From IMG/VR virus record IMGVR_UViG_3300018946_000033, positions 5,717-69,716 of that record: a stretch of 64,000 bases of DNA. One strand, given 5' to 3'. This stretch comes from a virus. Below are positions 32,783-40,561 of the stretch, piece by piece. Each line of letters starts with the position of its first letter. The first letter of the stretch is position 1. A model generated the notes under the pieces. The model ran no database searches. It was not told the origin of the DNA and saw nothing but the letters and a program-made list of their open reading frames with translations. Made by a program: the position numbers and the translations under genes.

Positions 32783-33706
32783 TCACGTGCCGGTGATGCG
32801 GACGCCGGCGGTCGGGTCCTGAATCACCGGTACGCAGATCCGGCGAGCCCACATGTCGTGGGCGTCGCGGCGGGCGATCCGCTCGACCTGGACCTGGATG
32901 CCGTTCGGGGACACCGCGTACCCGGGGTCCACCTCGACTTCGTCGGCCATCCCGCCAAGCGTCCGCGAGTCGATCAGCCACACGTCGTTTAGACCGCCGG
33001 GCAGGTTCCCGAGCGACGTCTTCGCGATCTTCAGGCCGTTGAACGACTCGATCTCGCCGCCGTACACCGGGTTGTCGGAAGCCTCGCGCCGGCGCAGCGA
33101 CGCGACCTTCTCGTCGGAGGCAAGCTCCGCGTACCGCTCGCTGGACATCAGCATCATGTCCAGCTCGTGGCCCAGCTCCAGGTCTTCGACCTGCGCCTTC
33201 GCCTTTTCCAGGTCGCGGAGCATCGTCGCGGTGGACTGGTCCCACGCCGCGGTCGCCGGGTACGTCGCCGTCACCCGCGACGCGATCGCGGCGATCGCGA
33301 CACGGTCAACCTTGCGGCGAACCGTGTTCGTGACCTTCCGCAGCGCCCAGTCCACGGATCCGTACATGGGCAGAGTCCGCTTGATGCGCTCGTCGGTAAG
33401 CCGGGTCGCTTGGCCCCACTTGACCACCGCAGCGATCGCCGCAGTGCCCGTCTGCGGGTTCGCGAAGGGGTACTCGGCACCGGCTGCGATCGCCTCGACC
33501 TCGCGGTCCGTGAACAGCGGCTCGTCCTCGGTGTAGGAAACGGCGCCGCCGGTCGCCCGGAACCGCGTCGGCAGCAACAGGTCCGCAACGAACTTGATGT
33601 CAGTGAGCTCCTTCAGCCGCCGCGACAGCGCCGCCGGGGAAAGGAGCAAAGTGTGAATAGTCTGCAGCTGTCCGGAGAGACTGGCCGGAGGCAGTGGATA
33701 GGTCAC
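32783..33706 (-). CDS. Major capsid protein
   Basis: AIAAGAEYP, VKWG, TDE motifs; synteny; GAGGTG RBS. Confidence 0.9.
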   Translation of the reverse strand: MTYPLPPASLSGQLQTIHTLLLSPAALSRRLKELTDIKFVADLLLPTRFRATGGAVSYTEDEPLFTDREVEAIAAGAEYPFANPQTGTAAIAAVVKWGQATRLTDERIKRTLPMYGSVDWALRKVTNTVRRKVDRVAIAAIASRVTATYPATAAWDQSTATMLRDLEKAKAQVEDLELGHELDMMLMSSERYAELASDEKVASLRRREASDNPVYGGEIESFNGLKIAKTSLGNLPGGLNDVWLIDSRTLGGMADEVEVDPGYAVSPNGIQVQVERIARRDAHDMWARRICVPVIQDPTAGVRITGT

Positions 33707-33823: not shown

Positions 33824-34219
33824 CTAGATCGCCATCCACTCGACGGCCGCACCGTCTGCGGCGGTCGTCAGGGCGATGCCATCGACGGCCCGGGCGTTGT
33901 TGATGTCGCCCGCTACGGCGCCTGCCGCTGCGGCAATCGTGGCGACCTTGCCGGCGTCCGCCGAGGTGATTTGGTCACCTGCGGTGATAGCGCCGGCCGC
34001 CAGGGAGATGTGAACCGCACCCCGTCCGTACATGGTGTAGTCGGCGTTCACGGCGGCGTCTGTGGCCGCGACTCCCACGTACTTGGCCTTCGTTGCTGCG
34101 GTGGCCGGGGCAGTGGTGCCCGACCCGGATACCGCCACGCGCTGGCTGCCGGTAACTGCGGCCGATGCGCGGGTGGTGATGCTGTCGCCAGGCATGTGCT
34201 TCGGCAGGTAGTCACCCAT
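33824..34219 (-). CDS. Capsid decoration/cement protein
   Basis: VGVAATDAA, AAGAITAGDQITSADAGK, GIALTTAA. Confidence 0.85.
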   Translation of the reverse strand: MGDYLPKHMPGDSITTRASAAVTGSQRVAVSGSGTTAPATAATKAKYVGVAATDAAVNADYTMYGRGAVHISLAAGAITAGDQITSADAGKVATIAAAAGAVAGDINNARAVDGIALTTAADGAAVEWMAI

Positions 34220-34221
34220 GA

Positions 34222-36102
34222 TCAGACCCCCGCACCGAAGACAGCGGCGTACAGGGCGTCGTCAGAGGTGCTGTACGAGTCGCTGACGCTTCCGGCCACG
34301 CCAGACGGGCCAACCGGGACAGCTTCGCCCGCGGACTTGGCGTTAAGGATGTCGGCGACAACGTCGGGGGCCTTGTCGTAGCGGGCCTCCCACGCGGCGC
34401 GCTCGGCCGGCGCGATCTTGCCGCTGTTCACCACCGAGTCGAACAGGGCCGCCTTCGCGGACACCCGCTTCTCCTCGCGGATCTGGGCGAGTTCGGCCGA
34501 CATCCGCTTCATCTCCGCCGCCGCTTCCGGGGGGAGTGCTGCGGCGATCGGCTCGGAACGAACGGGCTCGGTGGGCTGCGGCGCGGGCACGGGAACCGGG
34601 GTCGGCTCCGGTGCGGGAGTGGGTTCGCTGGGGCTCGGCTCGACCGGGGTGCGCTCGGCAACGGCGGCGAGGATCGCATCCTTGCCGGCGTCGTCAGGCA
34701 GGCCCAGCCCGCGAGCGATATCGCTCAGGTCGGACACGTCATCCTCCATGGGATTGGGTTCGGTGGTGATGACCGGCTCAGTGGCCGGGGAATTGGGGGC
34801 ACCCTCTGCGGGTGCCGGTGAATCGGTGGCCGGATCAGCGGCGGACTCGACTGCCACGTTGGTGGCGTCTGGCAGGCGAGGCGCTGGCGCGTTGTCGCGG
34901 CCCGCGTAGTTGAAGACGCTGAAGTCCCAAGCGTTCTTCGCCGCGAGGGCCCCTTCGGCGCTCTTCCTGACCGCCTTGTCGTCGACCTGCACGCGGTGGG
35001 CAAGACCCGCGGCCACAGCCTCTTCGGCGGAGTACCACGTCTCGGCGCGCATCGCTTCACGCCACACGGACGCTTCGCCGCCAGCGCGGGAGGCGTAGAT
35101 GTTCGCGAGGTTGTCGGACAACCGGGCAAGCTCGTCCTGCATCTTCGCCATCTCGGCTGCGTCGCCGATGCACATACCGCCGGCGTCGTGAATCATCACG
35201 GTCGCGTGGGGAGCAATGACCCGCTCGTCGCCAGCGACGGCGATGAACGAGCCCGCCGACGCGGCGAGGGCGTCGACATACGTGGTGATGTGCGCGGGGT
35301 GGTTCCGGAGAGCCTGGTAGATGGCCAGGCCGTCGAAGGCGCTGCCCCCGGGCGTGTTCAGGTGAACGTCGATGCGGTCGGCCTTGATTGCCATCAGGTC
35401 GCGGACGAAGTCCTGCGCCGAGACACCGAACCAGCCGATCTCGTCGTAGATCCATACCTCTGCCGCGCCGGTGCCGGCGAGATTCTGGATCTTGTACCAG
35501 TCGGTCTTGCCTTCGCGAAGACGTGCCATCGGTTGCGCCGTCTTCAGATGGGACTTATCCACGGGGCTCCTTCCGGAGTTGGTACGTAGGTCCACCGCTG
35601 CGCCCGAGGCAGTCAGAGGGATGTCGGTGCCGTCGTCGGCGAACACGACTCGCAGCCGGTCGAACGTGATGGGGCCGGTGCGGTCCACCAGGTCGGCGAG
35701 CTTGGCCAGGTCGTCGGTGTAGATGAGCGAGACGTGCGCAACCCACGGCGCGTGCTGCTCGGGCATGGCGTCGTCGGGGGCGGCTTCGACTACGGCGTTG
35801 TGGAAGTCGTCGACGGCTTGGCCGCCCACGCCGAGGACGATGCACGTGTCGCGCTCGTCGCTGGCCGGGTTGAACACCGACAGGGCGAAACCGTCGCCGT
35901 CCACCGTTCCAGTGCCACCGAGGGTCCGCATGGCGTCGAGCAGCGCGGACCGGGCGTCATCGTTCCAGTCGGCCGCGTCGCCGAGGAACAGCAGCGTCAG
36001 GTGCAACTCTTCGACCGGCAGACCCTCATCGACTGCGAGGCGCCCCGCGTCGGCGGCAGTAGGGATGAGGGCGACCATGCCCTTGGTCTTCGGTTCCGCC
36101 AT
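34222..36102 (-). CDS. 2H phosphoesterase - ClpP head maturation protease - scaffold fusion
   Basis: HLTL and HVSL; IYDEIG, LNTPGG, LAASAGS, MIHD, ETWYSAEEA; C-terminal coiled coil. Confidence 0.9.
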   Translation of the reverse strand: MAEPKTKGMVALIPTAADAGRLAVDEGLPVEELHLTLLFLGDAADWNDDARSALLDAMRTLGGTGTVDGDGFALSVFNPASDERDTCIVLGVGGQAVDDFHNAVVEAAPDDAMPEQHAPWVAHVSLIYTDDLAKLADLVDRTGPITFDRLRVVFADDGTDIPLTASGAAVDLRTNSGRSPVDKSHLKTAQPMARLREGKTDWYKIQNLAGTGAAEVWIYDEIGWFGVSAQDFVRDLMAIKADRIDVHLNTPGGSAFDGLAIYQALRNHPAHITTYVDALAASAGSFIAVAGDERVIAPHATVMIHDAGGMCIGDAAEMAKMQDELARLSDNLANIYASRAGGEASVWREAMRAETWYSAEEAVAAGLAHRVQVDDKAVRKSAEGALAAKNAWDFSVFNYAGRDNAPAPRLPDATNVAVESAADPATDSPAPAEGAPNSPATEPVITTEPNPMEDDVSDLSDIARGLGLPDDAGKDAILAAVAERTPVEPSPSEPTPAPEPTPVPVPAPQPTEPVRSEPIAAALPPEAAAEMKRMSAELAQIREEKRVSAKAALFDSVVNSGKIAPAERAAWEARYDKAPDVVADILNAKSAGEAVPVGPSGVAGSVSDSYSTSDDALYAAVFGAGV

Positions 36103-36112
36103 GGCGACCCCC

Positions 36113-38215
36113 TCAGTCCCAAGATCCGATAAGTTCGCCGCGACAGCGGAGGCCGCCTTCGCAGGCCTTGAACCCTGCGACGGGGTAGTCCTTGAGGGCG
36201 TCGGCGAGCGAGTCGTAGCGGCGGCCGTCAACCTCGGAACATTGATCACACCGCGCCTTGTCGTTGCGTTCCGAAGCGAGAAGGCTCGTCGGCGGTGCGA
36301 GCTCGAACACGGCCGTGCGGCCCGCGTTTTGCGCCGCGGTTAACGCCGCGCCCAGGTTGTCGACCGCCCAGCCCGATTCCGACGACGACATGTCGTCGAG
36401 CACCGCGCGGATCTGCTCCGCGAGTTCGTCCGCCGTGGCCGACCCGCCCGACACCTGCAGCGCCCTGCGCGCCGCAGCCGACGAGTACCCGTTGGCGATC
36501 ACGCCGGCCGTAGCCTCAGCGACAGTGGAGACACGCTCAGCGCCGGGCGTGTCCGGCAGGTCCACCGACACGCCAGCGGCAACGGCGACCGCGGCGGTCG
36601 CCAGGGCGGTGCTCGTCGACAGCGGCTGCATCGCAGCGCCGATAGCGGCAGCCACCCCGGCCAGCACGGCGGCGGACACCACGAGGGTGCCCAGCGCGCC
36701 CAAGTCCTCAGCATCAGCAGCCGCAACGGCCTGCTCGGTGAGATCCTCAACGACCGGCTCGGCAATGTCGGGCCACTGCTCGCGCAGCTCATCCAGGGCC
36801 GCCTGCCACTCGTCCTGCGACGAGTCCTCAGCAGCCGCGTTGAGGGGAAGTGCAAGCTGACCGGCCGTGGCGCCCTTCCTGCTCGCTCTCCGGGCGCGCA
36901 ACGCCACGGCCGGGGCATCAGGACGTCGCCGGTTCGCGGCGGCGAGAGTGCCACCGGCCACGCTCGGCGCCGGCTTCACCATGTCCTCGCGTTCCGGCAG
37001 GCGGTACTCGCGGCGAATCCACGCCTCAAGCGCAGGGTCCGCCGACAGCGCACCGGAGGAAAGGAGCTGCTGCAGCGACGTGGCGGTCACCTCGCGGCGA
37101 GAACCGACCCCGGCAACCACCACGCGGGGGACGGGGACGTCGGTGCCCCAGTTCCACTCGACGATGCGGGCCGCGATCTGCCGCGTGGCCTCAGAGGCGA
37201 TCTGCTCGCCCATCGATTCCAGGGCCAGCGTCCAGGAGTCGATGAACGCCTCGCCCAACGCGCGGGACCCGCCATTGCTGCCCTGCCCCAGCTCCAGGTG
37301 CGGCATGAGCATGGCTTTGCTTATCTGCGCGTCGAGCCACTTCAGGAACGACAGCGTGTCCGGGATCTGCCCGTCCAAGCCGAGGATGCGCATCCGGAAC
37401 CCGGGTGGAGCGGAGGCACCGGCGGTCTCGCCGCCACGCGCCGCAGACGCCATCCGCTGCGCTTCCTGCATCTGCCCATCAGTCGGCGCTGTGCCCGGCA
37501 GCGCCTCGTTGACCGGCACACCCGACGACCAGCGCCGGTTGGCGGTGGCGTGGACGCGGATCATCTCGCGCTTGATCAGCCACGGCAGCCAAGCCGCGCG
37601 CAGCAGCGAAACGCCCGCCCAGTTCGAGCCGGCCTCACGGTCGCGGCAGTGCCACACCATGTCCCGCGCGGCGATCTGCGGGGCGCCGTCCTTGCGTGCC
37701 TTGTCCTGCGTCACGCCCAGGAACGCCCCGGTGATCGGGTCGCCGTGGATCTGCGTGATGGTCTGCGGCGGGCGCTCGGCCAGCACCGCGAGGCGAGCCA
37801 ACCCCGACGACATATCCGCGCCCAGGGCAAACCCCATGTGCCCGTACCCCAGCGTCGCCGACAGAGTGACGCGGAGGTACTCGGCCCACGACACACCCCG
37901 GGTCCGGGCCGCCGTGTGAGTGTGCACGCCAACGATTGGCAGGTCCATGTCGTCCGACACCACGAGGGTGTGCGCCGGGTCGACGCCGTGCCCGTCCAAC
38001 TGCCACGACGCGCGGTGCAACTGCAACGCGTACCCCGACAGGCCGGCATTGATAGCCGAATCGCGGCGCATCGCCCCGTACGTGTGCACGCTGTTCGGGT
38101 GCACCAAGTCGACCGGGGTGTCGGCGAAGTACTCGTCGAGGAGCCCGCTGAAGTCCGAGTCGCTGACCCTGCCACCAGGTGTCGTCGGCGGCCGGAACGA
38201 GGTGGGGGCGGTCAC
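36113..38215 (-). CDS. Portal protein fused to MuF-like C-terminal domain
   Basis: GVSLLRAAW, GSRALGEAF; C-terminal CDQC...CEGGLRCRG. Confidence 0.85.
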   Translation of the reverse strand: MTAPTSFRPPTTPGGRVSDSDFSGLLDEYFADTPVDLVHPNSVHTYGAMRRDSAINAGLSGYALQLHRASWQLDGHGVDPAHTLVVSDDMDLPIVGVHTHTAARTRGVSWAEYLRVTLSATLGYGHMGFALGADMSSGLARLAVLAERPPQTITQIHGDPITGAFLGVTQDKARKDGAPQIAARDMVWHCRDREAGSNWAGVSLLRAAWLPWLIKREMIRVHATANRRWSSGVPVNEALPGTAPTDGQMQEAQRMASAARGGETAGASAPPGFRMRILGLDGQIPDTLSFLKWLDAQISKAMLMPHLELGQGSNGGSRALGEAFIDSWTLALESMGEQIASEATRQIAARIVEWNWGTDVPVPRVVVAGVGSRREVTATSLQQLLSSGALSADPALEAWIRREYRLPEREDMVKPAPSVAGGTLAAANRRRPDAPAVALRARRASRKGATAGQLALPLNAAAEDSSQDEWQAALDELREQWPDIAEPVVEDLTEQAVAAADAEDLGALGTLVVSAAVLAGVAAAIGAAMQPLSTSTALATAAVAVAAGVSVDLPDTPGAERVSTVAEATAGVIANGYSSAAARRALQVSGGSATADELAEQIRAVLDDMSSSESGWAVDNLGAALTAAQNAGRTAVFELAPPTSLLASERNDKARCDQCSEVDGRRYDSLADALKDYPVAGFKACEGGLRCRGELIGSWD

Positions 38216-38270
38216 AGCTAACACCGCCCCACACCGCTAGGTCTGCTCAACGATTCGACGGGTGGCGCGG

Positions 38271-38612
38271 TCAGCGGTACAGCTCGTACGTCACACTCGT
38301 CGGCGACGAGTAGTTCACCACCGCTTCGGCGGTCGCGTTCGACACGAACACCGACGAGGGCTTGATTCGCTTCGTCGCACCGGCTGCCACCGTGAACAGG
38401 CCGGCGGTCTGCGGCGACACGGTGGCGTTACCTGCCGCGGTTGTGCCGGGGTCGACGATCGTGACGGTGATCGAACCGCCGGAGCCGTTGTGCACCTCGA
38501 GGATCGCGCCGTTGGCGATGTCGCCGCCGGAGATCCTGTCGCCGTTCGCAACGTTGGCGGGGGCGCTGAGCGTGGCGGTGTTGCCGAGGACAACGGCGGT
38601 GAGCAGAGCCAT
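38271..38612 (-). CDS. Small beta-rich probable virion protein
   Basis: AGGAGG RBS; between terminase and portal. Confidence 0.7.
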   Translation of the reverse strand: MALLTAVVLGNTATLSAPANVANGDRISGGDIANGAILEVHNGSGGSITVTIVDPGTTAAGNATVSPQTAGLFTVAAGATKRIKPSSVFVSNATAEAVVNYSSPTSVTYELYR

Positions 38613-38672: not shown

Positions 38673-40193
38673 CTAGAAGGACATGTTCATGAAGTCCGGG
38701 CCGTCGTCCTCGGCCGGGCGGGGCGCGGCGGGCTTCGGGACGGGCGGAACCCACTTCGTGACGGCCACGCGCACCGCGTACGAGCCCACGTCCACCTGGT
38801 CGTCGTGGGAGCCGTTCGGGAACGACGCGTGCTCGGACACCCACTCCTCAAGCCACGACGCCCCTGCTGGTAGCCACACCCGGCCGGCTGAAGCTCGCGC
38901 CGAGTAGGGCAGGGCTCGGGAGAACTTGTCCGTCTCCGCCTTGAGCGGCGTCACGTGCAGGCCGCTACGGGTCGCCTCGGCGGTCAACGTCATCGAATGC
39001 TGCGTGGCCTCAACGAACGCGGTGTCTACGCGCCACCGCGCCGCGAGCGGGCGCACCAGGTCGAAGTGGTTGGCCTCGCCGACCTTCGCGCGGACCCGGT
39101 CCAGCAGGACAAGGTCACCGTCGAGGGTCAACGCCCACGCCGCGGCGACCGTGAAGTCAGCCGAGGTACGCGTCGAAGCGGCGAGGTCGACGGTGATGAA
39201 CCGCCAACACTCGTCGACCGGCCAGACCCGGCCAGCCAAGTCGAGGCGGTCTCGGCGCCCGTCCGCCGGGGCCGGGGTCCAGTACCGGAACCACAGCCGC
39301 TTGAACAGGCCGCCCTCGGCGGGGGCGGGGCGCTGCTGGTACAGGGCGGCGAAGACGTACTCGCCGACATCGTGGCGGATCTTCGCCCAGTCCCGGTAGC
39401 CGCGGGCCGACACCATCGGCTCGCCGATCGCCCGACCAAGCGGGTCGTCGGGGGAGTCGCAGATCGCCGGGATGCGAACCACGTCCCAGTTGGCACCCTC
39501 GTTGGCGAGGATCTGCATGATCGGCTCGGACTCGTGCCACAGCGTCTGAATCCACGTGACCGTGGTGTGCGGCGCCATGCGGGGAATGAGGACACCCTGC
39601 CAGGTGCGCATGCCCCGGTCGCGGTACTTCGCCGACTGCGCTTCCTCGAGGTTCTTCAACGGGTCATCGACGAGTATCCGGTCGCCCGGTCGGCCGGTGA
39701 TTTGGCCGCCGACGCCGGCGCAGTAAACGCCGCCCTTGTGCCCTTCGAGTTGCCACCTGCCGGACGCCCTCGAGTCGGCGCGGAGGCGCAGCCCGAGGTC
39801 GACGGTGCCCTCGTCGCCGTTGTACGTTTCGAGTGCCCGTTTGATTTCCGCGCCCCAGCGCAGGGCGATCTCGCCGCTGTAGCTGATGATGATGATGCGC
39901 TGCTCGGGGTCGTCGAGGAGTAGCCACACCGGGTACCAGTAGGAGCAGAGGGTCGACTTCCCCTCCTGCGGTGAGAGGAACACGGCGAGGCGCGTCCGGC
40001 CTTTGCCGTCGGCTTGGGCCACGAGCTTGCGGTTGATGAGTTCGAGCGCCGGGGTGCGGACCATCTTCGGGTCGAGTTCGCACGCCAGGTCGAGGGGTGA
40101 GTCCCAGCGGCGCGGCCCGACCGGTTTCGGTGTGAGCGCGGCGGCGAACGCCTGCCAGCCGGCGCGTTCCCATTCGGTGGGGGTTGCCGTCAT
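38673..40193 (-). CDS. terL: Terminase large subunit
   Basis: SPQEGKS, ILVDDPLK, ALYQQRP, VDLA, FPNGSHDDQVD. Confidence 0.95.
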   Translation of the reverse strand: MTATPTEWERAGWQAFAAALTPKPVGPRRWDSPLDLACELDPKMVRTPALELINRKLVAQADGKGRTRLAVFLSPQEGKSTLCSYWYPVWLLLDDPEQRIIIISYSGEIALRWGAEIKRALETYNGDEGTVDLGLRLRADSRASGRWQLEGHKGGVYCAGVGGQITGRPGDRILVDDPLKNLEEAQSAKYRDRGMRTWQGVLIPRMAPHTTVTWIQTLWHESEPIMQILANEGANWDVVRIPAICDSPDDPLGRAIGEPMVSARGYRDWAKIRHDVGEYVFAALYQQRPAPAEGGLFKRLWFRYWTPAPADGRRDRLDLAGRVWPVDECWRFITVDLAASTRTSADFTVAAAWALTLDGDLVLLDRVRAKVGEANHFDLVRPLAARWRVDTAFVEATQHSMTLTAEATRSGLHVTPLKAETDKFSRALPYSARASAGRVWLPAGASWLEEWVSEHASFPNGSHDDQVDVGSYAVRVAVTKWVPPVPKPAAPRPAEDDGPDFMNMSF

Positions 40194-40204
40194 GGCGACC
40201 TCCG

Positions 40205-40561
40205 TCAGCGTGCGCCGCCTTCGTACGGTGCGGCGTGCCCGGCTTGGATGAGGATGGTGGCGAGGTCGCGGCCGTCGGCGAGCGTGATGTCGCCAAGGGG
40301 TCGCCCGTACTTGTCGAGGCTCTTCGACGTGAACGTGACGGGGTCGCCGATGGTGAGCAGCGTGAGGACGAAGTCGCGGGCAGCGCGGCCGGCGGCCGTG
40401 TTCAGTTCGGGGGCGTTGCAGTGGCCGAGGCGGCAGTTCTCCACGCGGTACGTGTACCAACCGAGGTCGAGCTGCATCCGCAGGGAGTCGGCGTCGATGA
40501 CCCGAAGGACGACGGCGGGCACGGTCCAGGTCGTCACGACCGCCGCCTTCCAGGGGGTCAT
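40205..40561 (-). CDS. Thermonuclease (SNase-like)
   Basis: RVIDADS, DLG, RL..CNAPE, DKYGRPLG. Confidence 0.85.
   Translation of the reverse strand: MTPWKAAVVTTWTVPAVVLRVIDADSLRMQLDLGWYTYRVENCRLGHCNAPELNTAAGRAARDFVLTLLTIGDPVTFTSKSLDKYGRPLGDITLADGRDLATILIQAGHAAPYEGGAR

What the first reader, a model, noticed from the sequence alone, without database searches (positions are those of the whole stretch)
34222..36102. 2H phosphoesterase fused to capsid protease and scaffold, with nested in-frame starts
Seen: intact HLTL and HVSL 2H motifs N-terminal to ClpP, and three in-frame starts each with an RBS: ATG 36102 (GAGGGG), GTG 35562 (GAAGGAG) and GTG 34737 (GGAGG). These predict full-length, protease-scaffold and scaffold-only products. 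Known: Acb1 is a 2H enzyme that degrades CBASS cyclic nucleotides, and prohead proteases can trigger CBASS. Inference: an anti-defence enzyme tethered to the trigger, or packaged and released by maturation cleavage.
Basis: partly seen in the sequence, partly recalled or inferred. Interest (0 to 1): 0.8.

Follow-up and report, generated by a model that had tools for sequence, protein, structure and literature searches.

The report
Phosphoesterase fused to phage head protease-scaffold
A prophage head gene joins an apparently active RNA/nucleotide-cutting (2H) enzyme to the capsid-maturation protease and scaffold, with conserved internal start sites that should also yield shorter products; it is a new arrangement of an already predicted way for phages to load counter-defence enzymes into the capsid.

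Summary
Window 34222-36102 (- strand) is one 626-residue frame between the portal and capsid genes. It encodes a 2H phosphoesterase (H34-L-T, H123-V-S), a disordered linker, a ClpP-related head-maturation protease (S282, H305), a second linker and a helical scaffold.

The fusion is not an artefact: 13 other protein clusters carry 2H N-terminal to ClpP.

Both internal starts lie in the linkers.
- The scaffold start (GTG 34737) is conserved as SD plus GTG/ATG/TTG in 24 of 25 unique related loci.
- The protease start (GTG 35562) aligns with the initiator Met of unfused relatives. It belongs to a start-signal enrichment just after 2H domains: 18 of 76 loci, against 2-5 of 82-83 inside the domain.

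The 2H module recurs in MuF, ADP-ribosyltransferase, scaffold and protease fusions. It is therefore best read as a capsid-targeted effector, as predicted in print in 2017 and 2022.

The module is LigT-like rather than a demonstrable Acb1 member, and its substrate is untested. The link to CBASS triggering by prohead proteases is an attractive hypothesis, not a result.

This scan found 2H-head-protein fusions before on other DNA.

The parts
34222..36102 (-). Whole gene: 2H phosphoesterase - ClpP-type prohead protease - scaffold polyprotein (626 aa plus stop)
   Evidence: Open frame and translation; Pfam, PHROG and NCBIfam hits; lies between the portal (36113-38224) and decoration/capsid genes.
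36107..36113 (-). SD-like GAGGGGG before ATG 36102; overlaps the portal gene's stop codon
   Evidence: Sequence; duplex energy -11.8 kcal/mol.
35608..36087 (-). 2H phosphoesterase domain (res 6-165)
   Evidence: PF13563 at 30.7 bits, above its cut-off of 27. AF2 model pLDDT 91.7. Fold matches LigT/CPDase with Z 14.5-15.1.
35992..36003 (-). 2H motif 1, H34-L-T36-L
   Evidence: His and Thr are invariant in 62 of 62 aligned relatives.
35725..35736 (-). 2H motif 2, H123-V-S125-L
   Evidence: His is invariant in 62 of 62; Thr/Ser column is at least 90% conserved.
35518..35607 (-). Disordered linker 1 (res 166-195) holding the second start
   Evidence: pLDDT below 50 for res 166-200 in the full-length model; block means 75, 53 and 68 over res 161-185 in the domain model.
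35560..35574 (-). Internal start 2: GGAAGGAG-N4-GTG (codon 181), predicted protease-scaffold product of 446 aa
   Evidence: Energy -10.5 kcal/mol, rank 1.4% of 432. Aligns with the initiator Met of unfused P0005. L066 keeps GGAGG-N8-GTG. Start signals are enriched just after 2H domains.
34990..35463 (-). ClpP-related head maturation protease domain (res 214-371) with S282 and H305
   Evidence: NF045542 at 160.5 bits, above its cut-off of 120. PF00574 E 7.8e-28. S282 and H305 are invariant in A1 and A4.
34735..34747 (-). Internal start 3: GGAGG-N5-GTG (codon 456), predicted scaffold-only product of 171 aa
   Evidence: Energy -9.3 kcal/mol. 24 of 25 unique related loci have SD plus GTG/ATG/TTG here.
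34225..34737 (-). C-terminal scaffold region (res 456-626), helical
   Evidence: Helices 460-465, 474-484, 525-559, 565-577 and 579-587. Weak PF10123 C-terminal-half match, E 0.012, stronger in relatives. phrog_2976 covers res 199-612.

Best explanation
This is a prophage head-assembly gene made of three modules joined by two disordered linkers: an accessory, catalytically intact 2H phosphoesterase; a ClpP-fold prohead protease; and a C-terminal helical scaffold that targets whatever is attached to it into the procapsid.

Translation probably starts at three in-frame sites. It would give a full-length chain (2H-protease-scaffold), a protease-scaffold chain and a scaffold-only chain. All share the capsid-binding C-terminus, as in lambda C/Nu3 and Mu I/Z (recalled) but with one more tier.

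The full-length form places a limited number of 2H enzymes inside the procapsid. The protease then cuts in the linkers. The folded 2H domain most likely stays with the DNA and is delivered to the next host, or acts late in the producing cell. There it hydrolyses a nucleotide or RNA phosphodiester: a cyclic or 2'-5'-linked immune signal, or 2',3'-cyclic phosphate RNA ends.

Shown here: the architecture, conserved catalytic residues, conserved start signals and recurrent fusion to head-interior proteins.

Inferred: use of the starts, packaging, cleavage, delivery and substrate.
For: Architecture.

The fusion is real:
- 14 of 264 stored proteins carry both domains, always with 2H N-terminal.
- L066 DNA is one open frame.

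The module is accessory:
- 0 of 26 ClpP-only loci have a 2H match within about 3 kb.
- The quick ClpP tree needs 7 gains or losses of the fusion, at least 3 of them forced by well-supported branches.

The enzyme looks active: His, Thr and His are invariant in 62 of 62 relatives, and the model has pLDDT 91.7 with a 2H fold.

The family points to the head interior:
- The top 150 relatives have a median length of 764 aa; only 10 of 144 are under 260 aa.
- Partner domains among 62 scanned: Mu-like_Pro C-terminal half 11, Phage_Mu_F 9, ADPrib_exo_Tox 5, CLP_protease 2, Peptidase_S78 1, NUDIX 1.
- In phage records the domain sits in 'capsid maturation protease and MuF-like fusion protein' genes.

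Nested starts. At the scaffold site 22 of 22 Val codons are GTG, against 258 of 599 Val codons in the window's phage genes; the other two strong sites use ATG and TTG.

Printed predictions: PMC5512222 section 20 and PMC9503650 section 21 (passages read).
Against: - No protein-level data exist. The internal sites could be relics of former gene starts.
- Within this gene alone their SD strength is only about 2 seen against 0.8 expected.
- The junction start is absent from most 2H fusions: 58 of 76 loci have none in the 30 codons after the domain.
- DNA was available for only one other 2H-ClpP gene (L066).
- Proteases and scaffolds are normally degraded or expelled at maturation, so retention of the 2H domain is an assumption.
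- Some 'unfused' relatives may be gene calls that began at the internal start. That would weaken both the gain/loss count and the 'aligns with initiator Met' argument.
- The lysogen's own genome shows no SMODS/CD-NTase gene (0 of 1, 98% complete).
Confidence: 0.55

Rival explanations
1. Counter-measure tethered to its trigger. The 2H enzyme works in the cytoplasm of the producing cell late in infection. Being made one-for-one with the prohead protease, it destroys the CBASS (or similar) nucleotide signal that the protease's own activity provokes. Capsid delivery would be incidental.
For: Prohead protease activity activates CD-NTases: T4 gp21 (PMC12991175, abstract and passages) and lambda gpC, a protease with the associated Nu3 scaffold (preprint 10.64898/2026.10.06.757031, passages). 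Acb1 is a 2H-fold enzyme, and its structure matches the model at Z 11.4. SMODS genes occur in 23 of 200 genomes of the host's family (the count includes the unpublished genome G064).
Against: - A catalytic enzyme does not need 1:1 tethering; a neighbouring gene would do.
- The same 2H subfamily is fused to MuF, ART and scaffold-only partners that are not proteases.
- An internal start that makes protease without 2H would undo the coupling.
- There is no Acb1 family hit.
- No SMODS gene was found in the lysogen.
Confidence: 0.15
2. RNA-end enzyme. The 2H domain is a LigT/ThpR-like 2',3'-cyclic phosphodiesterase or a Usb1-like RNase. It heals or trims RNAs (for example tRNAs cut by host anticodon nucleases or toxin RNases) and does not degrade signalling nucleotides. 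It could be packaged or not.
For: - The best structural matches are RNA/cyclic-phosphate enzymes: drCPDase Z 15.1, TT0787 15.0, PH0099 14.7, E. coli LigT 14.5, Usb1 13.5.
- The best PDB sequence matches are LigT/ThpR, E 0.0067.
- PF13563 is the only 2H Pfam family above its cut-off.
- Iyer et al. 2017 list an Usb1-like RNase role as one of two options (PMC5512222 section 20).
Against: TIGR02258 (ThpR/LigT equivalog) scores 17.6 bits against a cut-off of 65.7. Iyer et al. report that the polyvalent-type 2H domains never associate with RNA ligases (PMC5512222 section 20). Z differences of 3-4 partly reflect Acb1's smaller size (130 against 150-157 aligned residues).
Confidence: 0.2
3. Evolutionary relic. 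A 2H gene fused in frame to the protease gene by loss of a stop codon. The internal SD and GTG at 35562 is the leftover start of the old protease gene and is no longer used. The 2H part has no role tied to the capsid.
For: V181 aligns exactly with the initiator Met of unfused homologs. The fusion has been gained or lost several times (quick tree).
Against: - The catalytic residues and the whole domain are conserved at 42-77% identity across fused lineages.
- The junction column is only V or M in 8 of 8 fused proteins that align without an insertion there.
- SD plus GTG is kept at 45% protein identity in L066.
- Start signals are enriched after 2H domains in unrelated architectures.
- No separate 2H gene lies beside unfused proteases (0 of 26 loci).
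Confidence: 0.1

Closest known systems
2H phosphoesterase domains of phage 'polyvalent' / head-packaged proteins (2H-MuF and 2H-portal fusions; Iyer, Burroughs, Anand, de Souza, Aravind 2017, PMC5512222; Iyer et al. 2022, PMC9503650)
   Same: It is the same 2H subfamily: the window's domain finds MuF-fusion genes of Streptomyces phages at 36-44% identity. 9 of 62 relatives carry Phage_Mu_F. The logic is the same: an enzyme attached to a capsid-interior protein. The predicted role is the same: degrade nucleotide signals, or act as an RNase.
   Different: Here the carrier is the ClpP-type prohead protease plus scaffold, not MuF or portal. The passages I read mention assemblin-like peptidases at the C-termini of polyvalent proteins, and Nudix fused to a 'capsid-protein-processing serine peptidase', but not 2H-ClpP. 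Nested internal starts are not discussed there.
Lambda C/Nu3 and Mu I/Z nested protease-scaffold genes (recalled from textbook knowledge; the gpC/Nu3 association is seen in passages of preprint 10.64898/2026.10.06.757031)
   Same: A ClpP-fold protease gene whose C-terminal part is also translated alone, from an in-frame internal start, as the scaffold. The site is conserved in 24 of 25 related loci.
   Different: A third, outer tier adds an enzyme domain unrelated to assembly. Similarity to Mu I is limited to the C-terminal half of PF10123: E 0.012 here, and 4e-7 in P0011.
Acb1 (anti-CBASS nuclease, phage T4 / FBB1; PDB 7T26; Pfam PF23474)
   Same: 2H fold with two HxT/S motifs, and phage-encoded. 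The structural match is Z 11.4 over 130 residues, with Foldseek E 3.6e-5.
   Different: There is no PF23474 hit for this protein at E <= 1. 3 of 62 relatives hit it at E <= 0.001, best 9.6e-5. The one bit score I saw, P0049, is 17.7, below the 27-bit cut-off. LigT/CPDase-type enzymes match better. Acb1 is a small stand-alone protein (137-140 residues in the solved chains); this domain is fused and expressed with the head genes.
E. coli ThpR/LigT and related RNA 2',3'-cyclic phosphodiesterases (PDB 5LDI, 1IUH, 1VDX, 5H7E)
   Same: These are the best structural and sequence matches among solved structures. Size and motif spacing are similar.
   Different: Identity is only 12-16%. The protein fails the TIGR02258 equivalog cut-off, 17.6 against 65.7 bits. 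It is fused to virion assembly proteins.
T4 Alt and internal proteins (capsid-targeted, protease-processed, injected; recalled, and described in the introduction of PMC5512222)
   Same: An enzyme is loaded into the prohead, freed by the prohead protease and injected with the DNA. 5 of 62 relatives of this 2H module also carry an Alt/VIP2-type ART domain.
   Different: Targeting here would come from covalent fusion to the protease-scaffold, not from a short N-terminal capsid-targeting peptide. Injection is not shown.

Membership tests
2H phosphoesterase superfamily | Two H-x-T/S-x motifs on a duplicated alpha+beta fold | tested here: met
   The motifs are H34-L-T36 and H123-V-S125. PF13563 scores 30.7 bits against a cut-off of 27. 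The AF2 model has pLDDT 91.7. It matches 2H structures at Z up to 15.1 and Foldseek probability 1.00.
2H phosphoesterase superfamily | Phosphodiesterase or cyclic phosphodiesterase activity | not testable with these tools
   This needs an enzyme assay. The only indirect support is invariance of His, Thr and His in 62 of 62 relatives.
ThpR/LigT RNA 2',3'-cyclic phosphodiesterase (TIGR02258 equivalog) | Score above the curated equivalog cut-off | tested here: not met
   17.6 bits against a cut-off of 65.7.
Acb1 anti-CBASS nuclease (PF23474) | Sequence match to the Acb1 family model | tested here: not met
   No PF23474 hit in P0001 with max E-value 1. 3 of 62 relatives hit it at E <= 0.001, best 9.6e-5. 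P0049 scores 17.7 bits against a cut-off of 27.
Acb1 anti-CBASS nuclease (PF23474) | Acb1-like structure rather than a generic 2H fold | tested here: inconclusive
   7T26 gives Z 11.4, rmsd 3.3 over 130 residues. LigT-type enzymes give Z 14.5-15.1 over 150-157 residues. The difference is partly a size effect.
Acb1 anti-CBASS nuclease (PF23474) | Cleavage of CBASS cyclic oligonucleotides and rescue of phage from CBASS | not testable with these tools
   Biochemical and genetic assays are required.
ClpP-related phage head maturation protease (NF045542 / PF00574) | Family model above its cut-off, with catalytic Ser and His | tested here: met
   NF045542 scores 160.5 bits against a cut-off of 120. 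PF00574 has E 7.8e-28. S282 and H305 are invariant in 14- and 10-sequence alignments.
ClpP-related phage head maturation protease (NF045542 / PF00574) | Position between the portal and major capsid genes of a head module | tested here: met
   The gene order is terminase 38673-40460, portal 36113-38224, this gene, cement/scaffold-like ORF 33824-34219, capsid 32783-33706.
Nested protease/scaffold gene pair (lambda C/Nu3, Mu I/Z type) | Conserved in-frame internal start with an SD ahead of a C-terminal helical scaffold region | tested here: met
   24 of 25 unique related loci have SD plus GTG (22), ATG (1) or TTG (1) at the aligned codon. Res 460-587 are helical.
Nested protease/scaffold gene pair (lambda C/Nu3, Mu I/Z type) | A separate scaffold polypeptide is actually made | not testable with these tools
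   This needs protein or ribosome-profiling data.
Head-packaged polyvalent/effector proteins (Iyer et al. 2017) | Effector domain covalently joined to a capsid-interior protein and encoded in the head module | tested here: met
Head-packaged polyvalent/effector proteins (Iyer et al. 2017) | Presence in virions and injection into the host | not testable with these tools
   A BFVD match is named 'Putative structural protein [Gordonia phage GMA2]'. The virion mass-spectrometry table of PMC4524720 is a supplement, which was closed, so I could not check it.

The most novel reading that the evidence does not exclude
A three-tier nested gene sets the copy numbers of scaffold, protease and a 2H enzyme in each procapsid. 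The 2H tier exists because the phage's own prohead protease is what protease-sensing CBASS systems detect. The phage therefore couples to the trigger itself an enzyme that destroys the resulting cyclic-nucleotide alarm, both late in the producing cell and, after packaging, at the start of the next infection.
Probability: 0.12. Interest if true: 0.8.

Novelty: new variant of a known kind. Interest (0 to 1): 0.45.

Why it matters
If the 2H domain is packaged and active, this is a natural, easily engineered example of cargo loading into a capsid through a protease-scaffold. It would also give a direct test of the 2017 prediction that phages inject nucleotide-degrading enzymes.

Prohead proteases were reported in 2023-2026 to be the trigger of several CBASS systems. 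A phosphodiesterase fused to exactly that protein gives a simple experiment on whether phages pair trigger and antidote.

The conserved internal starts matter for annotation. Gene callers and curators currently label these genes 'RNA ligase', 'capsid maturation protease', 'portal protein' or 'hypothetical protein' for the same architecture. They also miss the scaffold-only product.

Tried and rejected
- **Homolog DNA by identity.** I could check codons at the junction in only one other 2H-ClpP gene, L066, obtained through the search for related loci.
- **IMG/VR scan.** The scan with res 1-300 returned 25 loci. All match only the linker/ClpP part of the query (matches begin at residue 135-213), and none scored as carrying 2H.
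- **Family genomes.** Among 400 other genomes of the host's family, 16 have the 2H domain. None of the 16 loci tested (L019 fragment left out) has a ClpP-region match beside it.
- **Full-length query against phage records.** 0 of 2299 matching records cover 80% or more of the query.
- **Sequencing artefact or split gene.** Rejected.
- **Inactive, purely structural 2H domain.** Rejected on motif invariance.
- **ClpP tree.** The careful tree did not finish in the time allowed, so only the quick tree is reported.
- **Literature.** '2H phosphoesterase' + 'capsid maturation protease' found 0 papers. 'Acb1' + 'MuF' + 'packaged' found 0. A five-term Nu3 search found 0. 'BCSR5' returned 5 papers whose listed titles are genome announcements, reviews or taxonomy, none naming the phosphodiesterase structure 9Q2G/9Q2Y. 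PMC421614 (Liu and Mushegian 2004) is not held. The statement that a 2H-ClpP fusion is not in print rests only and the passages read in PMC5512222 and PMC9503650. Their figures and supplements were not seen.
- **Virion mass spectrometry for Gordonia phage GMA2.** The data sit in a closed supplement.
- **Host defence context.** SMODS is not found in the lysogen.
- **Not run.** Complex prediction, the look-up of sequencing runs, read laying and the protein-atlas search, because none could settle translation starts, packaging or substrate.
- **Earlier scan findings.** The lookup by sequence found nothing. The lookup by words found 66 notes on the same theme in other genomes.
Full report
**1. What is there**

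On the - strand the frame is open from 36249 to the stop at 34222-34224. ATG 36102 follows the portal gene's stop (36113) by 11 nt and is preceded by GAGGGGG. Homologs begin at the same place with MA(D/E)xPKTKGMVAL. The product, P0001, has 626 residues.

Family searches give these domains:
- Pfam finds 2_5_RNA_ligase2 (PF13563) at res 25-142 (30.7 bits, cut-off 27) and CLP_protease at 228-371 (E 7.8e-28). It finds a weak match to the C-terminal half of Mu-like_Pro at 452-588 (E 0.012).
- NCBIfam places res 214-370 in 'head maturation protease, ClpP-related' (160.5 bits, cut-off 120). The LigT/ThpR equivalog TIGR02258 fails (17.6 against 65.7).
- PHROGs gives head maturation protease for 199-612. 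For res 2-223 it gives the middle of an 861-position 'head maturation protease' profile, and for 5-165 the end of an 891-position 'RNA ligase' profile.

The neighbours are terminase, a Mu-type portal, a cement/scaffold-like small ORF and the major capsid protein.

A full-length AlphaFold2 model has mean pLDDT 64.5. It shows three folded parts: 7-162, 203-391, and helices between 460 and 587. They are separated by stretches with pLDDT below 50 at 166-200 and 410-458.

**2. The fusion is real and accessory**

They come from several sources.
- One of them, L066, is available as DNA and is a single open frame.
- Close relatives of the protease-scaffold part lack the domain: P0003, P0005, P0009 and P0010 at 56-60% identity.
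- 0 of 26 ClpP-only loci carry a 2H match within their flanks.
- On a quick ClpP-domain tree the fused state needs 7 changes, at least 3 of them forced by well-supported branches. The careful search did not finish.
- Caveat: some unfused entries may be gene calls that began at the internal start.

**3. The 2H domain**

Conservation and distribution:
- The catalytic His-x-Thr/Ser pairs are conserved in all ten fused proteins. In 62 diverse relatives His, Thr and His are invariant, and the second Thr/Ser column is at least 90% conserved.
- An exhaustive search finds 1138 clusters at E <= 0.001 and 174 at E <= 1e-30.
- The 144 new proteins among the top 150 have a median length of 764 aa, and only 10 are under 260 aa. 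The domain sits at varied positions within them.
- Pfam partners among the first 62: Mu-like_Pro (C-terminal part) 11, Phage_Mu_F 9, ADPrib_exo_Tox 5, PG_binding_1 4, Acb1 3 (weak), CLP_protease 2, Peptidase_S78 1, NUDIX 1, GNAT 1, ART 1.
- In phage records the domain matches 400 records: Mycobacterium 209, Gordonia 169, Streptomyces 17, Rhodococcus 4, Mycolicibacterium 1.
- In Streptomyces phages it lies inside 'capsid maturation protease and MuF-like fusion protein'. An example is TurkishDelight gp15, 1147 aa, with MuF at 129-251 and 2H at about 303-472.
- In Gordonia phages it lies in proteins of about 950 aa, labelled variously RNA ligase, capsid maturation protease or hypothetical.

Structure:
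- The domain model has pLDDT 91.7.
- By Z-score it is closest to RNA/cyclic-phosphate 2H enzymes: drCPDase 15.1, TT0787 15.0, PH0099 14.7, Arabidopsis CPDase 14.5 and E. coli LigT 14.5.
- Acb1 scores 11.4 and a Burkholderia phage phosphodiesterase 12.3. Foldseek gives the same picture.
- The nearest predicted viral structures are large actinophage head proteins.

So the domain is a distinct, phage-type 2H subfamily. Membership of Acb1 or of ThpR/LigT is not met by sequence.

**4. Nested starts**

I scored SD:anti-SD pairing for all 432 internal in-frame ATG/GTG/TTG codons of 13 - strand genes. GTG 35562 (-10.5 kcal/mol) ranks at 1.4% and GTG 34737 (-9.3) at 2.5%. The annotated start scores -11.8. 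Both internal sites lie in the disordered linkers.

Scaffold site:
- 25 unique related loci align to res 436-490. In 24 of them an in-frame start codon with energy <= -9 lies within three codons of the aligned position, directly before the conserved Ser-x-Leu-Ser.
- The codons are 22 GTG, 1 ATG and 1 TTG. The exception is a 29%-identity match.
- GTG makes up only 258 of 599 Val codons in the window's phage genes. The conserved peptide E-E-D-P-V is therefore largely a conserved GAGGAGGAC-N3-GTG signal.
- This is the arrangement I recall for lambda C/Nu3 and Mu I/Z.

Junction site:
- V181 of P0001, and the matching V of P0002, fall in the same alignment column as the initiator Met of unfused P0005.
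- In the second fused clade, the column that holds the initiator Met of unfused P0009 has M (P0004) or V (P0007, P0008, P0011, P0012, P0014).
- L066, at 45% identity, has GGAGG-N8-GTG there.
- Across 76 unique loci of any architecture, 18 have a strong start in the 30 codons after the 2H domain (20 of 96 NTG codons). Five 30-codon windows inside the domain give 2-5 of 82-83 loci (16 of 655 NTG codons). Later windows give 4-7 of 55-71 loci.
- These loci are related, so the figures describe a pattern and are not probabilities. Most 2H fusions (58 of 76) lack such a start.

**5. How it most likely works**

The shared C-terminal scaffold should take all three products into the procapsid. The longest product brings in the 2H enzyme, and the protease should then cut the linkers.

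The partners of this 2H subfamily (MuF, Alt/VIP2-type ART, scaffold and prohead proteases) are all capsid-interior proteins. This matches what Iyer et al. proposed: head packaging and injection to degrade nucleotide signals, or an Usb1-like RNase role (PMC5512222 section 20, read in full; PMC9503650 section 21, passage).

T4 gp21 activates a CD-NTase by cleaving a loop (PMC12991175, abstract and passages). Lambda gpC activates another through its protease activity, whereas Nu3 alone does not (preprint 10.64898/2026.10.06.757031, passages).

SMODS genes occur in 23 of 200 genomes of the host's family, a count that includes the unpublished genome G064. None was found in the lysogen itself.

Tethering does not explain the non-protease partners. 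An internal start that makes protease without 2H would also weaken it. I rank it below the packaging reading.

**6. Novelty**

Already in print are the class (2H on head-interior proteins), the nested protease/scaffold design and the protease-CBASS link. My searches found no paper joining '2H phosphoesterase' with 'capsid maturation protease', or Acb1 with MuF and packaging.

This scan has noted the theme repeatedly on other DNA: 66 notes, several of them protease fusions.

What is added here is the ClpP-scaffold carrier with two conserved internal start signals, that is, a probable three-tier nested gene.

Verdict: a new variant of a known kind, of moderate interest. Substrate, packaging and use of the starts are all untested.

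Noticed in passing
window 36113-38224 (-): The portal ORF has 703 aa, but Portal_Mu covers only res 49-409 and the PHROG portal profile res 42-506. The last ~200 residues have no family hit and end in a Cys-rich motif. This could be a fused minor head (MuF-like) module, but nothing confirmed it.
   Followed up: partly
window 33824-34219 (-): The 131-aa ORF between this gene and the capsid gene hits Pfam Phage_cement_2 just under its cut-off (23.6 against 24 bits). It also hits phrog_673, 'head scaffolding protein' (E 1.2e-11). It could be a decoration protein or a second scaffold.
   Followed up: partly
phage records H41-H120: The same 2H-containing head gene is labelled 'RNA ligase', 'capsid maturation protease', 'head maturation protease', 'portal protein' or 'hypothetical protein' in different, even duplicate, records of Gordonia and Streptomyces phages. 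Mycobacterium phages such as Cali and Alice match under genes annotated 'RNA ligase'; I did not check their lengths.
   Followed up: partly
L061: A 40%-identity copy of the 2H domain lies in a roughly 1100-aa open frame on a 12.5-kb contig of a MAG labelled Opitutaceae, outside the Actinomycetota. This could be mis-binning, or the module could have a wider host range.
   Followed up: no
L007, L008, L015, L018, L055, L063: In several 2H fusions the 90 codons after the domain contain no in-frame ATG, GTG or TTG at all. This is the opposite of the start-rich junctions seen in about a quarter of loci.
   Followed up: no
window 38271-38612 (-): [quoted passage not shown] That is an odd position for a tail gene.
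   Followed up: no
P0016 (855 aa) and P0141 (954 aa): Some 2H-ClpP proteins carry about 260-340 residues of unassigned sequence between the 2H and ClpP domains. The linker can therefore host further modules.
   Followed up: no
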